Below are positions 3,001 to 14,424 of a stretch of DNA of 14,424 nt, piece after piece; within the stretch, counting starts at the first letter, position 1, and each line of letters begins with the position of its first letter. Source of the DNA: a bacterium. Lineage in GTDB: Bacteria > Eisenbacteria > RBG-16-71-46. Location of the stretch: contig JAYWEM010000018.1 of assembly GCA_043779265.1 (NCBI GenBank), positions 1-14,424 of the forward strand, written 5' to 3'. The position numbers were made by a program.

Positions 3001-6000
3001 CGATGGTGACGATTCGATCTCCCTGCAGCGTCAGGCCGGTCCAGCCGTGACGAGGCAGGCTCAGAGCCGAAAGCAGGAGTGCCGCCGTGGCGGGGACCAG
3101 AAGCCACGAGAGCGCTCGCATCTCACCGGGACGGCCCATCGATCCTCCTCCCGCAGGAGAACGAGCAGCAGACTGGCAGCCGACCGCGCGAGGGTCAAGC
3201 CCCAGTCCCCTCTTGGCCTCCGGGCACGCCCCCGGCTATTCTCCGTCAAGTCCTCTCGTGCATTGGCCGATATGCACATCACATGGATGCGGTGCTGCAT
3301 GGCTACTCTTGCTTCAGGGAGCGGAGGTCAGACCCACGATGCTGGTCCTGACAAGGAAGTTGGGCGAGAACATCCGGATCGGAGACTCGGTGAAGATCAC
3401 CGTGTTGGAAGTCCGTTCGGGCCAGGTCAAACTGGGCATCGACGCTCCACCGGACGTGAAGGTGCACCGCGAGGAGATCTACGCGCGCATCCAGGAGGAG
3501 AATCGGCGAAGTGCCGCGGGCGGCAAGCCCCCGTCACCGCCGGATGCCTCCGCGGGTAAGCGCTGACCGCACGGAGGTGGCGAGCCACCACCGGCGATCG
3601 CGAGGAGACATGCCGAGCCCAAGTCGCCGGAGCAACTCGAAGGGGAACCCGGATGCGAGCGTACCCGAGGTGAAGCCCGTTTCCGCGCAGGCGAAGATCC
3701 TCAACCTGTCCAAGATCGACGCCGTCCGCCGTCGCATCGCGAACGGCTACTACGATCGGGACGAGGTGCGCGACCGTCTCGCCCATGCCGTGCTCGAGGA
3801 GCTGCGCGAGGACTGAGTGGAATCGGCGGCTACCCGCCTTCCCCCCGGACGTGCATAATGCTCTCGACTCGCGATGGACCGCGAGGACAAGCCCATGCCC
3901 ACACGCCCCGCGCGCCGAGAAGGCGCATCCCCGCTCGCTGAGCTGGTCGACGCGCTCATGGAGGACGCGGCGACGGCTGTCCTCATCGTGGCGTCCGATG
4001 GCTCGCTCATCCGCCACAATGACGCGGCCCCCCGACTGTTCGGACTCTCGACCGCTGCGATGTCGCGCGCGACCGGGAGTGATCTGCTGCGGACGGTGGT
4101 GGCGGGCGAGGACCTGTTGGGCGATGCGCAGCGCGCCGTCCGCACCGAACGCGAGGCCGTGCTGGCGACTGCCAAGGCGGGCGACATCCCGGTGCGGGTG
4201 CGCAGCCACCGGCTGGGCGACCCGCCGATCGTGCTCGTCACCATCGAGGACATGACCCAGACGAGACGGACGCAGCAGGACCTGCGTCGGCATGAGCGGC
4301 TCGCCACGCTGGGCCAACTCTCGGCGGGTGTGGCGCACGAGATCCGCAATCCGCTCGCGGGCATCGGCACCAGTGCCCAGGTGCTGCTCCGACGATTCGA
4401 GGCCGGCGACGAGCGCGCCCGCTTCGTGCAGGTGATCCTCGATGAGGTGGCGCGGCTCGACCGCATCGTCTCGAGCCTGTTGCAGTACGCGCGGCCGCGC
4501 ACACCCGAACTGCGCCCCTCCTTGCTCGCGGACTGCGTGCAGCGCGTCGTCGCGCTCTCAGCCGAGATGACCATCAAGGCCGAGGTGCAGGTCGAGGTGG
4601 TCGCGGCGCCCAAGCTGGCGCACCTGTGGATCGACCCCGATCTGGTCCAGCAGGTCCTGCTCAACACCACGCTGAATGCCGTGCAGGCGATGCCCGAAGG
4701 TGGGACCCTGCGGATCGAAGTGCGCAAGGTGCGTCACAAGCGACCGCCGCGCGGCCCCGGGAGGCGAGCCGAGGATCTCTCGGGCGAGCGAGCGCGCGAC
4801 GAATCGGGATGGATCGAGTACCAGCAGATCCGCATCAGCGACACCGGCGTCGGCATCCCCAAGGGGGTGCTCGCCAAACTGTTCGATCCCTTCTTCACGA
4901 CCAAGGCCACGGGCACCGGGCTCGGGCTCAGCATCTCGCAGACCATCATGCAGGAGCACGGCGGTTCGATCGCCGTGGACAGCCGTGAGGGACGCGGGAC
5001 CACGGTGCTCATCGACTTCCCATTGGAGAAACGCCATGGATCGAGGCGACAGCGTGACACGAGCGGGGACGGCGCAGAGTCTGCTCATCGTCGATGACGA
5101 GCGCACGCTGCGCTTCTCGATCGGCGAATGGGCACGCGATCAGGGCTTCACACCCATCGAGGCCTCCACGGGTCGCGAGGCGCTCGAGGCGATGCGCGAG
5201 CAGAGCGTCGATGCGGTGCTGCTCGACCTGCGCCTTGGCGACGAGGACGGCATCAAGCTGCTGAAGCACCTGCGGGAGATCGACCCGACCGTGCCGGTCG
5301 TGATGCTCACCGGCCACGGCACCGTCGAGCACGCGGTGCGCGCCATCAAGATGGGCGCCTATGACTTCATGCTGAAGCCGCCGGACCTCGATCACCTGGC
5401 GGTGGTCCTCGAGCGCGCCATCGAGCATGGGCGGTTGAAGCAGGAGGTCTCCCACCTGCGGCAGCGCACCGCCCAGTCCCAGACGATCATCGGTGCCAGC
5501 GCGAGCCTGGCGCGCGTGTTGCAGCGCCTGGAGCGCGCAGCGCAGGCGCCGACCGCCACCGTGCTGATCCACGGCGAAACGGGGGCGGGCAAGGAGTTGA
5601 TGGCGCGCTATCTGCATGACCACTCCGCGCGCGCCGAGGGCCCGTTCGTCGAGCTGAACTGCTCGGCGATCCCGGAGTCGCTGCTCGAGAGCGAGCTCTA
5701 CGGTCACGAACGCGGCGCTTTCACGGACGCCAAGCGATTCAAGAAGGGTCTGTTCGAAGTCGCGGACGGCGGGACGTTGTTCCTCGATGAGATCGGGGAG
5801 ATGGCGCCTGCGCTGCAGGCCAAGCTCCTGCGCGTGCTCGAGACGCGGACGTTCCGCCGCGTCGGTGGACATGCCGACATCACCGTCGATGTCCGCGTGG
5901 TGGCGGCGACCCACCGGAACCTGCCGAAGATGGTGAGCGATGGCGGCTTTCGTGAGGATCTCTACTTCCGTCTCAATGTCGTCCCGATCGAGGTGCCGCC

Positions 6001-12000: not shown

Positions 12001-14424
12001 GTCGGCCTCGCTGTTCATGACCATCGAGCGTCAGCGACTCGAACCCGTCGTCATGCAGGCGAGCCAGAATCTCCGCACGCTCATCGAGGAACGCCGCATC
12101 CGCGTCGACTTCGAACTGAGCGAGGAACTGCCGGATGTCCTACTGGATGCGCACCGCATCACGCAGGTCGTCACCAATCTGCTCTCCAACGCGATCAAGT
12201 TCTCGCCGAGTGATGGCGCGATCGAACTTCGGGTGCGTGAGGCGGATGGCATGGTCCGAGTCGAGGTGACCGATCGGGGCGAGGGCATCGCGCCGCGCGA
12301 CCTGCCCAAGCTGTTCCGCAAGTTCCAGCAGGTGGACTCCAGTTCGACTCGCAAGGTGGGTGGTACCGGTCTCGGACTCGTCATCAGCAAGGGCATCGTC
12401 GAGCAGCACGGCGGCACGATCGGAGTCGAGAGCGAGTTGGGTGAGGGCAGCACGTTCTGGTTCACGCTGCCGGTCGCCGAACGGACGGCGGGGGAGAGCG
12501 CACTGCGCGCTTGACGCATCGCGGTGCGGTTCACTAGGTTGCAGGCGGCCTCTGATGGATCGGGGGCCGCTTCCTTCTTCCGCCGTGCGGACTCCTCGCT
12601 GCCCGGAAAGGTCCTCTCCGACGATGCGCGCCATGGATGACGCCGCTTCGCAGTCCCGTGCTGTTCCCGATCGTTCCGCCCGGATCGCCCTGCTGCTCGT
12701 GGGAGCGTTGGCCGGTGCGATTCTCGCGATCGGGCTTGCGCCCCGCTCACTCGCACGTTTCGAAGTGCGTCTGCCGTGGGCCGGTGCATCGCTGACCGCA
12801 GCCGACTGGCCACGCGATCCGCTGCCTGGCGAAGAGGCGATCGTCCGAGTCGGTGCGAACGGCATGGAACTCGTCGTCCGCGCCCCCGAGGCCGCGATGG
12901 CCGAGGCGCTCGCACGGGAGATCTCCGCGCAGCAGGTCAGCGCGCTTCCTCTGTTGCGCGAGATCGAGGTCGAACTGCGCGCGGCGTGGCGCCTCTCGGT
13001 TCCACACGGGCCCTCGCTGCCGATGACGCGCGAGAGCGAGGTCGCGGCGCTGCTCCTGGGTGAGGCCGCGCTGCGCCGCGATCTCGCGCTGCAGTTGCCC
13101 GGTCCCTACGCGGCGGCCCCGGCCGAGCATCTCGCGGTCCCGAGCCTCGCCGTGCTCGAGCGTCAGCAGGAGCTCTCGCTGGCGATTCCCGCCGCCGATC
13201 CCGATCGCATCGAACAGTTGCTGATCACGGCCGCAGCCGATGAGTCCGACTGGCTCGCCGCCAGTGGCGTGGCCGGCAGCTCCGCGAGCGAGCGCGGCTC
13301 GGCGTGGCGTCGCTGGCAGCTGGCGCGAGCCGATTCGCTCAGCGTCATCGCCGAGCGATTGCTCGAGAGCGAGACGGCGTTGCAGCAGTCGCTCGCCGCG
13401 TGGGCGATGCCCGCTCAGCGCTCCGCGCTGGGCGAGACCCGTCGCTCGTCCTATCTCGCGCTCGCGCGTGCACAGGTGCCGCCCACGGTCCCCGGCGCCG
13501 GTCCGATCGCAGGCGTCTGGGCGATGGTGATCGGCATCGGCGCGCTGACCGGTGCCGCTGCGGCCAGCTTCGGCGGGTGGGTCGCGCGTCGCGGCCGCAA
13601 TCGTGGCGCAAAGGCATCGCCGACCGCGTTCCCCGGCCGTGATCCGGGAGCGACGGAAGCGTGGCTGCACGTCGTCACCGGACCCGATCGCACGTCGATC
13701 GCGCGCGCCGTCCTCGAACTCGCCTCACACACGCTGGCGAGGGGAGAGCGCGCCCTCATCATCGACGCGAGCACGCGCCTCGCCCTGCACGAACGGCTCG
13801 GCCGCGAGGCGCGCTGGGGCCTGATGGAGTGCCTGCACTGCGACATGCCGGTTCTGGGACTGGTGCAGTACGGTGGATGGCCGGGGCTCTATCTGCTCGC
13901 CCATGGCGAGACCAAGCGGGCCTCGGCGGGCTGGTCAGGGCTCGGCCGGCGGTTGGATGAAGCGAAGCCGCACTTCGGGCGGATCCTGTTCTGCGTCGAC
14001 CAGGCGGCGCCGCGCGAGCTGGGGGAGGCGCTGATGGGTCGGCCGCTGGAGGGCTGGTGGGCCGAGTCCGGGGAGCGCCTGCCGAGGCAGGCGGACGAGC
14101 TCCCGGGCCGACTCGGTATCGCATTCTCCTGCATCGACATGCGCCACTTCCCGGAGGTCACGCTCGAACGGCTCGGGGAGCGCGCCGCAGCGCTGGCGCC
14201 GAGCATCCAGGTCGAACCGGCACCAGTCGTGACCCCGGCGCCGATTCCTCCGGCCGAGGTGGCCGTGGAGATCCCGGTGATCCCGGAGGGTCCGGTCGTG
14301 TTGGACTGCGACTTGCAAGTCCAGCAGCGACTGCGGTTCCTGGCGTGGATGCGCCGGGTCCAGTCCGAGAGCCGCCGCGAGGAACTCGAACCGGTCGCCT
14401 GACCGCGAGAGCCGAACCGCGGTC

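What a model noticed while it worked through the whole genome (the two positions that open the first line are those of the whole stretch)
3246..12514. Flagellum-free sigma-28 module (CsrA-FlgM-like-FleSR-FlhG-FliA) rewired to a pilus/MglA regulon
C18 holds the regulatory end of an ancestral flagellar cluster (csrA, FlgM-like ORF, sensor kinase + sigma-54 activator, FlhG-like ATPase, FliA-type sigma, GGDEF, hybrid kinase) without structural genes, kept across the phylum also where flagella are gone. Its promoter TCAAG-N15/16-GCCGAT(A/G) precedes csrA, mglA, an FHA-kinase-pilT-pilT operon, a pilB-like ATPase, HEAT/TPR and HD-GYP genes.
Evidence so far: Sigma hits TIGR02479 over cut-off; orthologue in 31 of 31 genomes (138) while FlhA is in about 62 of 205 (137). 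Of 20 loci, 15 stand alone, 5 still follow flhB-flhA-flhF (141). FlhA not found in 9 of 10 genomes with the lone module, controls rang (144, 145). Promoter: 23 of 45 hits non-coding at the right spacer against 0, 0, 5, 1, 2 at wrong spacers (148); 11-18 copies in each of four FlhA-less genomes, reversed control 0-1 (171); kept before the FHA gene in 7 of 7 loci (157) and mglA in 7 of 13 (148).
(Added by a program. Inside this text positions count along the whole contig: contig position 1 is position 1 of the stretch shown here. "Call 12" and the like, gene names such as g00115 and contig names such as C1 are that model's own, and its searches are not shown. The text may have been shortened before it was handed on; [...] marks where a part breaks off. 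The agent that wrote the report below was given it as the finding of a first reader that could run no searches.)

Follow-up and report, generated by a model that had tools for sequence, protein, structure and literature searches.

The report
Flagellar switch kept to run pili
In a group of uncultured soil and water bacteria the flagellum genes were repeatedly deleted from around their control genes, and the surviving switch appears to turn on the surface-crawling type IV pilus machinery and its polarity control instead.

Summary
Real, and better supported than first stated, with corrections. The window (Ca. Eisenbacteria) is a hollowed-out flagellar cluster. In flagellated relatives the same regulators flank flg/fli/flh blocks at the same locus, and native versus hollow state changes at least four times on the sigma tree. 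The sigma-28 is in 194/206 genomes; FlhA is over cut-off in 57. The small ORF behaves as a short FlgM (synteny, profile, modelled complex 0.75 vs control 0.00). A conserved sigma-54 site (64/67 loci) heads the flhG-fliA operon. Sigma-28-type sites precede csrA-flgM, mglA and, in this family, the core pilus operons pilB-pilT-pilC (23/26), pilMNOPQ (12/13) and an SgmX-like gene (6/6).

Corrections: (1) this genome is not flagellum-free; it has a second, separately inherited flagellar cluster with its own FliA and a different promoter variant. (2) Much of the regulon predates flagellar loss; only pilB/pilM look newly captured. (3) The full module is family-level, not phylum-wide.

Precedents exist (non-flagellated Legionella; Rubrobacter WhiG; Bdellovibrio FliA). 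The scan reported the island twice before on other genomes. Sigma-promoter pairing remains inferred. New variant of a known kind.

The parts
671..3139 (-). Membrane PDZ/SpoIIE (PP2C) phosphatase, divergent flank; it marks the same edge of the cluster in flagellated relatives
   Evidence: PF07228; found in 28 of 36 long f1/f2 loci; abuts flgF in native G041, G074
3213..3242 (+). Possible sigma-70-type promoter in tandem upstream of the sigma-28 site (weak)
   Evidence: Position; a strict pattern was found in only 14 of 48 csrA loci
3246..3272 (+). Sigma-28-type promoter TCAAG-N15-GCCGATA for csrA-flgM
   Evidence: Kept in 39 of 48 csrA loci, 4 hits summed over six wrong spacers
3339..3566 (+). 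csrA
   Evidence: TIGR00202 and PRK01712 over cut-off; follows fliW in native clusters
3610..3816 (+). Short FlgM (C-terminal sigma-4-binding helices; N-terminal part reduced)
   Evidence: Syntenic genes hit PF04316 (G074 28.8 bits over cut-off 25, G017 24.4); 18 of 42 family members hit PF04316 weakly, no other family more than 1; hhalign probability 98.7; complex model 0.75 vs 0.00
3874..5097 (+). PAS sensor histidine kinase
   Evidence: 35 of 36 long loci
5036..6460 (+). REC-AAA+-HTH sigma-54 activator
   Evidence: 36 of 36 long loci
6703..6717 (+). Sigma-54 (-24/-12) promoter heading the REC...flhG-fliA-GGDEF-kinase run
   Evidence: 64 of 67 f1/f2 loci, 0 at wrong spacing, the 3 misses cut by the scan edge; same site in native G074, G076, G041, G027; not found in f8, f9, f13, f15
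6738..7172 (+). Single-domain response regulator
   Evidence: PF00072
7169..7408 (+). Sigma-70 region-4-only protein (also in native clusters)
   Evidence: PF08281 over cut-off; counterparts in G027, G074
7405..7638 (+). Conserved 77-aa helical ORF, function not assigned
   Evidence: 32 of 36 long loci; no family
7635..8531 (+). FlhG/FleN-like MinD ATPase
   Evidence: Follows flhF and precedes fliA in native clusters; MinD models under cut-off
8543..9415 (+). FliA/WhiG-family sigma-28 (sigma A), the vertically inherited copy
   Evidence: Over TIGR02479 cut-off; tree follows families; 72 synonymous vs 7 non-synonymous codon differences to a same-genus copy
9412..9807 (+). HisKA-only protein
   Evidence: PF00512 26.4 bits, just under cut-off; 31 of 36 long loci
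9716..10771 (+). GAF-GGDEF protein; active-site motif SGDEF here, degenerate in most f1 copies, GG[DE]EF in native clusters
10790..12514 (+). REC-GAF hybrid histidine kinase, ends the cluster in both native and hollow loci

Best explanation
This is the ancestral Eisenbacteria flagellar cluster with its structural blocks deleted and its regulatory cascade intact. SHOWN: gene order, repeated hollowing, conserved sigma-54 and sigma-28 sites, and their distribution. INFERRED: the PAS kinase phosphorylates the sigma-54 activator, which fires the -24/-12 promoter that once led into the basal-body genes and now leads straight to flhG and fliA. Sigma-28 then transcribes a surface-motility programme: mglA, an SgmX-like TPR gene, pilB-pilT-pilC with the downstream kinase/activator pair that probably drives the sigma-54 pilA promoter, pilMNOPQ, FHA-kinase-pilT-pilT, HEAT/HD-GYP, TPR-DUF4388, and several kinases and receivers. 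It also transcribes csrA-flgM as negative feedback. The short FlgM binds sigma region 4. With no matching export gate, it is most likely released by proteolysis or by STAS/SpoIIE partner switching (untested). The ancestor already ran flagellum, MglA and part of the pilus cluster from this sigma. That non-flagellar arm is why the switch survived each loss, and family f1 later also placed pilB and pilM under it. Where a second flagellum was acquired, it brought its own FliA with a distinguishable promoter variant.
For: Synteny of native vs hollow loci, with different leftovers: G042 flgN-fliW-csrA-fliC fragment, G017 fliW-PilZ, G033 fliW, f18 fliN-fliO. Six label changes on the sigma tree, at least 4 forced by starred branches. 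In native genomes the same motif class precedes fliC, pomA/motA, fliL, flgN and a cheW-like gene. In f1 the N15 motif is as frequent without the second sigma (11.4 per genome, n=56) as with it (11.9, n=33), whereas the N14-KCCGAGA variant tracks the second system (0.55 vs 3.2). 61 of 89 sites in 8 FlhA-less genomes are intergenic, sense and within 450 nt of a gene (two duplicated sites removed). pilB 23/26, pilM 12/13, SgmX-like 6/6, mglA 8/9, FHA 7/8 in f1, with 0-3 hits summed over six wrong spacers. PilM in 66 of 67 genomes. MglA E 2e-71 to M. xanthus MglA. Complex model 0.75 vs best control 0.00 at sigma region 4.
Against: No expression or binding data; pairing rests on consensus and co-distribution. 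The relaxed -35/-10 rule was chosen after seeing pilM upstream sequences. Related genomes are not independent: each target is one conserved ancestral site. This genome's own pilM site has a degenerate -10 and fails the rule, and its pilB site ends GCCGAAG. pilA carries a sigma-54 site, not sigma-28, in f1, f2, f3 and f18. Outside f1/f2/f13 the core pilus operons mostly lack the site: pilM has sigma-54 in 13 of 30, mglA 0 of 4 in f18. Most strict-motif targets are signalling or unknown proteins. The TPR protein matches only the C-terminal part of SgmX (E 3e-14, far below cut-off). An MglB-like protein was not found in this genome with PF03259. The FlgM profile found no solved FlgM by sequence, and the complex pass may reflect a solved look-alike.
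Confidence: 0.72

Rival explanations
1. The retained sigma is a general life-stage or dispersal master switch, as FliA is for the Bdellovibrio attack phase. Pili and MglA are one part of a mostly signalling and envelope regulon that differs by family.
For: Strict-motif targets are dominated by kinases, receivers, HEAT/TPR, secreted and unknown proteins. In f18 they include mreB (3 of 4 genomes), pilins and a CheA-like gene but not mglA, pilB or pilM. The sigma is kept in 194/206 genomes even where pilus sites are absent.
Against: In f1 the most consistently kept sites are exactly the MglA/SgmX-like/PilB/PilM set. This rival differs in emphasis, not in the cascade.
Confidence: 0.18
2. The sites are read by another sigma (the second FliA, an ECF or group-3 sigma, or sigma-70, since TCAAG is the reverse complement of a -35 TTGA), and the module is unrelated to them.
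For: This genome has two sigma-28s; its flgM and flgL-like genes in system B carry N15-TCCGATA sites close to class A, so cross-reading is likely here. TCAAG alone is common in intergenic DNA.
Against: The motif is undiminished in 56 f1 genomes with no second FliA match; it has the sigma-28 geometry, lies before fliC/motA/flgN in native genomes and before the module's own flgM.
Confidence: 0.07
3. The module is a decaying relic, or the flagellar genes are merely missing from incomplete bins.
For: All genomes are metagenome-assembled; the GGDEF motif is degenerate in most f1 copies and this genome's FlhG has G-to-E in the P-loop; a few FlhA-less bins do hold flagellin (3 of 68).
Against: The deletions are internal to contiguous loci, including 1-10-contig genomes; two independent markers are absent together; sigma A is the best-kept large gene of the module (median 83% identity) with strong purifying selection.
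Confidence: 0.03

Closest known systems
Flagellar regulators retained in non-flagellated Legionella (L. longbeachae subclade: FliA, FleN, FleS/FleR; L. oakridgensis: functional FliA and FlgM). PMC5655016, passages read
   Same: Same class of survivors (sigma-28, anti-sigma, FleN/FlhG, two-component sigma-54 activator); repeated independent flagellar loss; sigma-28-dependent flgM; FlgM must be removed without export (apparently degraded in L. oakridgensis).
   Different: In Eisenbacteria the survivors stay as one in-place cascade across most of a phylum, include csrA, and point to a defined type IV pilus/MglA regulon; the review passages name no such regulon for Legionella. No second, separately regulated flagellum in the same cell was described in the passages read.
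Rubrobacter WhiG-(c-di-GMP)-RsiG switch controlling type IV pili. PMC8325347 and PMC13595943, abstracts and passages read
   Same: A sigma-28-family factor with the same promoter type (-35 T(C/A)A, -10 GCCGA) driving pil operons and c-di-GMP enzymes.
   Different: Anti-sigma there is RsiG with c-di-GMP and FlgM is absent; here FlgM, the sigma-54 tier and the ancestral locus are kept, and targets include MglA and an SgmX-like protein of a diderm T4aP system.
Bdellovibrio FliA as attack-phase master regulator, including Tad/Flp pili. PMC5430801, passages read
   Same: FliA regulon expanded to pili and many non-flagellar genes; shown with a heterologous E. coli reporter.
   Different: Bdellovibrio keeps its flagellum; targets are type IVb pili and pilA is stated not to be FliA-regulated.
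Myxococcus xanthus MglA-SgmX-PilB control of type IVa pili. PMC7519303, passages read
   Same: The predicted targets are the same functional set, and the pil cluster order pilB-pilT-pilC-kinase-activator-pilA-ABC-pilD-pilM resembles it (order in Myxococcus recalled).
   Different: The passages read concern protein-level control; transcription of this set by a sigma-28 is not described there. The SgmX match is partial.

Membership tests
FliA/WhiG (sigma-28) | Scores over curated family cut-off, with regions 2, 3, 4 | tested here: met
   TIGR02479 251.2 vs 189.6; PRK06986 233.7 vs 201; Pfam r2, r3, r4
FliA/WhiG (sigma-28) | Orthologue sits at flhA-flhF-flhG-fliA in flagellated relatives | tested here: met
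   9 native loci in families f3, f4, f5, f7, f10, f14 (G041 flhG not hit by the reference)
FliA/WhiG (sigma-28) | Directs transcription from TAAA/TCAA-GCCGAT promoters | not testable with these tools
   Only co-distribution and position evidence; no RNA run was listed
FlgM anti-sigma-28 | PF04316 match over cut-off | tested here: inconclusive
   Window protein no match; 18 of 42 homologues weak, best E 0.0023; syntenic G074 gene over cut-off and linked by profile
FlgM anti-sigma-28 | C-terminal helices bind sigma region 4 | tested here: met
   Model only: score 0.75, best control 0.00; mark reached by 116 of 157 solved and 2 of 215 mismatched pairs; runs agree in at least 65% of contacts; partner pLDDT at least 70; may be likeness to a solved complex
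FlgM anti-sigma-28 | N-terminal region and export through the flagellar gate | tested here: not met
   About 65 aa vs 83-115 aa in native or less-reduced copies; no export apparatus in most carriers
FlhG/FleN | MinD-type ATPase between flhF and fliA with deviant Walker A | tested here: inconclusive
   Position met in native loci; GKGGVGKS in 60 loci but GKGEVGKS in this genome; flhF absent from hollow loci
FleS/FleR | Family-level match | tested here: not met
   Best hits AtoS/AtoC, NtrC, all under cut-off; FlgR and FlbD models far under. Native clusters hold a second kinase-activator pair directly before flgB that was deleted
WhiG2-RsiG system | RsiG anti-sigma bound through c-di-GMP | not tested
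   No RsiG search was run; the module encodes a FlgM-type partner instead
MglA | Ras-like G domain homologous to Myxococcus MglA | tested here: met
   E 2e-71 over residues 3-194; carries an extra C-terminal tail
SgmX | Full-length match to NF052243 | tested here: not met
   52 bits vs cut-off 1800, C-terminal stretch only; called SgmX-like

The most novel reading that the evidence does not exclude
A whole flagellar hierarchy (kinase, sigma-54 activator, sigma-28, FlgM, CsrA) has been converted, in parallel across a phylum, into the master transcriptional switch for a Myxococcus-type pilus and polarity system. It has an export-independent FlgM released by SpoIIE/STAS partner switching, and it coexists in one cell with an imported flagellum whose own sigma-28 is insulated by a one-base -10 and spacer change.
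Probability: 0.3. Interest if true: 0.8.

Novelty: new variant of a known kind. Interest (0 to 1): 0.62.

Why it matters
It gives a phylum-wide natural series (native, partly stripped, fully hollow, re-flagellated by a second system) that shows why regulators outlive the machine they built: a pre-existing non-flagellar arm. It makes two open questions testable with synthetic genes in E. coli: how FlgM is relieved without export, and how two sigma-28 factors divide promoters in one cell. It also predicts that an abundant uncultured soil group moves by MglA-steered type IV pili under a staged transcriptional programme.

Tried and rejected
Reversed-pattern control: judged too weak because N15 is in frame with codons; replaced by N18. 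Strict TCAAG...GCCGATR rule on core pilus genes: found nothing at pilM in 30 loci beyond 4 near-matches and would have wrongly rejected the pilus claim; the -35 varies (TTCAG, TGAAG, TTAAG). PDB searches with the FlgM-like profile and with the G074 FlgM: no FlgM hit. Atlas searches for the 68-aa and 77-aa ORFs: unnamed clusters, one FlgM-bearing cluster at 0.87 with 14% share, a lead only. Public RNA runs: no RNA holder listed. Adjacency of contig C179 (mglA) and this contig: inconclusive, although mglA lies upstream of the module in relatives. Donor of the second flagellar system: homologue search gave almost no taxon names. The careful tree did not finish (quick tree used) and the one-clade test could not run on the FastTree tree; G093 was left out as a long branch. 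A planned look at further hollow loci in f6, f14, f16, f17 was not made; only G033 was added. Literature searches for a prior description listed no paper on this module in Eisenbacteria; PMC13443453 mentions the phylum only for predicted CsrA activity (passages); PMC13063649 passages were not relevant. No supplements were read; WhiG regulon tables in supplements could bear on overlap of targets.
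Full report
What is in the window. The ORFs between 3339 and 12514 are csrA, a 68-aa ORF, a PAS kinase, a sigma-54 activator, a REC protein, a sigma-region-4-only protein, a 77-aa ORF, a MinD/FlhG-type ATPase, a FliA/WhiG sigma over its cut-off, a HisKA-only protein, a GAF-GGDEF protein and a hybrid kinase. Relatives are titled Candidatus Eisenbacteria. The sigma matches 194 of 206 genomes of the phylum at E<=1e-30. FlhA is over cut-off in 57 of 206, with any match in 70, and controls rang. 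Counting 67 clear FlhA carriers, 130 of the 139 others keep the sigma. Flagellin was found in 3 of 68 FlhA-less genomes chosen for completeness, while PilM was found in 66 of 67 genomes tested.

This genome is not flagellum-free. Contig C1 holds a complete flagellar cluster with FlaF, FlbT, flagellins, FlhA over cut-off, its own FlgM-like gene, FlhG and a second FliA. This second system (B) forms a separate clade in both sigma and FlhA trees and does not follow the families, whereas sigma A and the FlhA linked to it do. 44 genomes have two sigma matches, 36 of them with FlhA.

The module is a hollowed cluster. I mapped 31 sigma A loci with flanks. In natively flagellated genomes of families f3, f4, f5, f7, f10 and f14 the sigma follows flhB-flhA-flhF-flhG and is followed by the same GGDEF gene and, where the fetched stretch reached it, the hybrid kinase. 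In G027, G041 and G074 the front end reads flgFGAHIJ-flgN-flgK-flgL-fliW-csrA, fliC-fliS-fliD, flgM, kinase, activator, then onward to flgB, with the SpoIIE gene abutting flgF in G041 and G074. The window is this order with the structural blocks removed. Other lineages kept different scraps: flgN, fliW and a flagellin fragment in G042; fliW and PilZ in G017; fliW in G033; fliN-fliO in f18. On a 37-row sigma tree the native/hollow label needs 6 changes, at least 4 forced by well-supported branches (FastTree, G093 left out). Repeated loss is the simplest reading. The full gene set is seen in f1/f2; csrA, flgM or flhG were not found in the fetched loci of several other families, which does not show absence from those genomes.

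The small ORF. It is conserved at about 65 aa (229 homologues). Genes at the same position in G074 and G017 hit Pfam FlgM; 18 of 42 family members hit it weakly and no other family took more than one; profile comparison with five longer copies gave probability 98.7. Folded with sigma A it scored 0.75 against a best control of 0.00; that mark was reached by 116 of 157 solved complexes and 2 of 215 mismatched pairs; runs agreed in at least 65% of contacts and partner pLDDT was at least 70; contacts were on sigma region 4. A sigma-28/FlgM structure is published (cited), so the pass may show likeness only.

Two promoter tiers. A sigma-54 site at 6703-6717 is kept in 64 of 67 f1/f2 loci, and the same site follows the activator gene in four native clusters. 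The sigma-28-type site before csrA is kept in 39 of 48 loci. Genome-wide, TCAAG-N15-GCCGATR gives 1624 matches against 313 for the in-frame N18 control; N15 exceeds N18 in all 89 f1 genomes and 40 of 41 f18 genomes but only 8 of 15 in f7. In 8 FlhA-less genomes 61 of 89 sites are intergenic, sense and within 450 nt of a gene.

Which sigma reads it. Three observations favour sigma A. In native genomes this motif class precedes canonical late genes: fliC (TAAAG-N14/15-GCCGAA in G027, G074), a PomA/MotA gene, fliL, flgN and a cheW-like gene. In f1 its frequency is the same with and without system B (11.9, n=33; 11.4, n=56). A second variant, TCAAG-N14-KCCGAGA, found here before a system B flagellin, STAS, REC and pilB-like genes, tracks system B (3.2 vs 0.55 per genome). 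Kin are not independent, so I do not lean on the p-value. Cross-reading is possible: system B flgM and flgL-like genes have N15-TCCGATA.

The regulon. mglA has the site in 12 of 26 orthologues (8 of 9 f1; 0 of 4 paralogues) and the FHA gene in 7 of 17 (7 of 8 f1, mostly N16), with no hits at six wrong spacers. Allowing TTCAG/TGAAG at -35 and a loose first -10 base, a rule chosen after viewing pilM, sites lie before pilM in 12 of 13 f1 (14 of 30 overall), pilB in 23 of 26 f1 (25 of 39) and an SgmX-like TPR gene in 6 of 6 f1 (9 of 14), with 3, 2 and 0 hits at six wrong spacers. Background for this rule is 4-9 of 1156 upstream regions per wrong spacer in this genome. Other recurrent targets are HEAT plus HD-GYP (4 of 4 f1 genomes), TPR-DUF4388 (six families), kinases, DUF6982 and PilZ; in f18, pilins and mreB. 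pilA has a sigma-54 site in f1, f2, f3 and f18 and a sigma-28-type site in f13.

Inherited versus rewired. Native flagellated genomes already carry the site before mglA (G027, G014), the SgmX-like gene (G074, G010), the pil ABC genes (G055, G010, G027) and the TPR gene. pilB had it in 0 of 4 native genomes, and pilM has a sigma-54 site instead in the sister family f3 and in f8, f9 and f18 (13 of 30). So most of the arm is old, and pilB/pilM look like gains in f1; direction is not proven without a rooted species tree.

Mechanism and weak points. Kinase to activator to sigma-54 promoter to sigma-28 to pilus/polarity genes, with csrA-flgM feedback, is the reading I commit to (0.72). How FlgM is removed is open: L. 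oakridgensis appears to degrade it (PMC5655016, passages); G074 has SpoIIE, RsbW-like and STAS genes directly after flgM, which suggests partner switching as in Pseudomonas HsbA (recalled). FlhG without FlhF may act as an FleN-like anti-activator (inference from recalled biology). Against: no expression data; degenerate pilM site in this genome; weak pilus links outside f1/f2/f13; most targets are signalling proteins.

Comparison and verdict. Retention of FliA, FlgM, FleN and FleS/R after flagellar loss is known in Legionella; sigma-28 control of pili is known in Rubrobacter, Actinoplanes and Bdellovibrio; MglA-SgmX-PilB is known in Myxococcus. Eight literature searches listed nothing on this module in Eisenbacteria; the library lacks most subscription papers. 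The scan noted the island twice before. What this work adds is the core pilus operons as targets, the sigma-54 to sigma-28 switch at pilM, the inherited arm, and two sigma-28 systems with separable promoters. New variant of a known kind; interest 0.62.

Noticed in passing
G000:C1:50349-83709 (L032, L033): Complete second flagellar cluster with FlaF/FlbT, its own FlgM-like gene, FlhG and FliA; patchy in the phylum and not following the family tree.
   Followed up: partly
G000: C1:53119, C1:19711, C24:4528, C30:6292, C58:35434, C70:13395, C107:6489, C190:8196: Second promoter class TCAAG-N14-KCCGAGA before flagellin, STAS, REC and pilB-like genes; tracks the second FliA, which differs from sigma A in region 2.4.
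   Followed up: partly
window 7635-8531: FlhG P-loop reads GKGEVGKS here but GKGGVGKS in 60 related loci, including the same genus; a private change or an assembly error.
   Followed up: partly
window 7169-7638: Sigma-region-4-only protein plus a conserved 77-aa helical ORF, first in the sigma-54 operon; the region-4 protein is also in native clusters. Role unexplained.
   Followed up: partly
L264, L276, L266, L263 (family f18): Sigma-28-type site 210-270 nt before mreB in G169, G173, G200 and G204 loci; also before type IV pilins.
   Followed up: no
L304-L307, L451 (family f18): A second, shorter mglA paralogue next to an MglB-like gene in G204; the module-linked mglA has a long C-terminal tail and no adjacent mglB.
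   Followed up: no
L069-L072: In f13 and f14 an N14 sigma-28-type site lies inside the GGDEF gene about 90 nt before the hybrid kinase.
   Followed up: no
L085 (G093:C70): Flagellar contig at 56% G+C in a family whose loci run near 70%, with a divergent FlhA and FliA; possible contaminant or third system.
   Followed up: no
L088 (G010:C40): Divergent FlhA-family gene without flagellar neighbours in several f4 genomes; possibly a non-flagellar type III export gene.
   Followed up: no
L090:1-4446 (G074): HDOD, SpoIIE, RsbW-like kinase, STAS and HEAT genes directly after flgM in a native cluster; candidate partner-switching module.
   Followed up: no
G000:C53:1-9135 (L047): Second pilus or type II secretion-like cluster (ATPase, pilC-like, pilins, pilM-Q-like); its promoter region is cut off by the contig end.
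   Followed up: no
window 12624-14402: 592-aa protein of no known family following the hybrid kinase, partly conserved in f1 loci.
   Followed up: no
Atlas result for window 3610-3813: Nearest unnamed clusters by features include two mostly from Gemmatimonadota; short FlgM-like proteins may occur there too.
   Followed up: no
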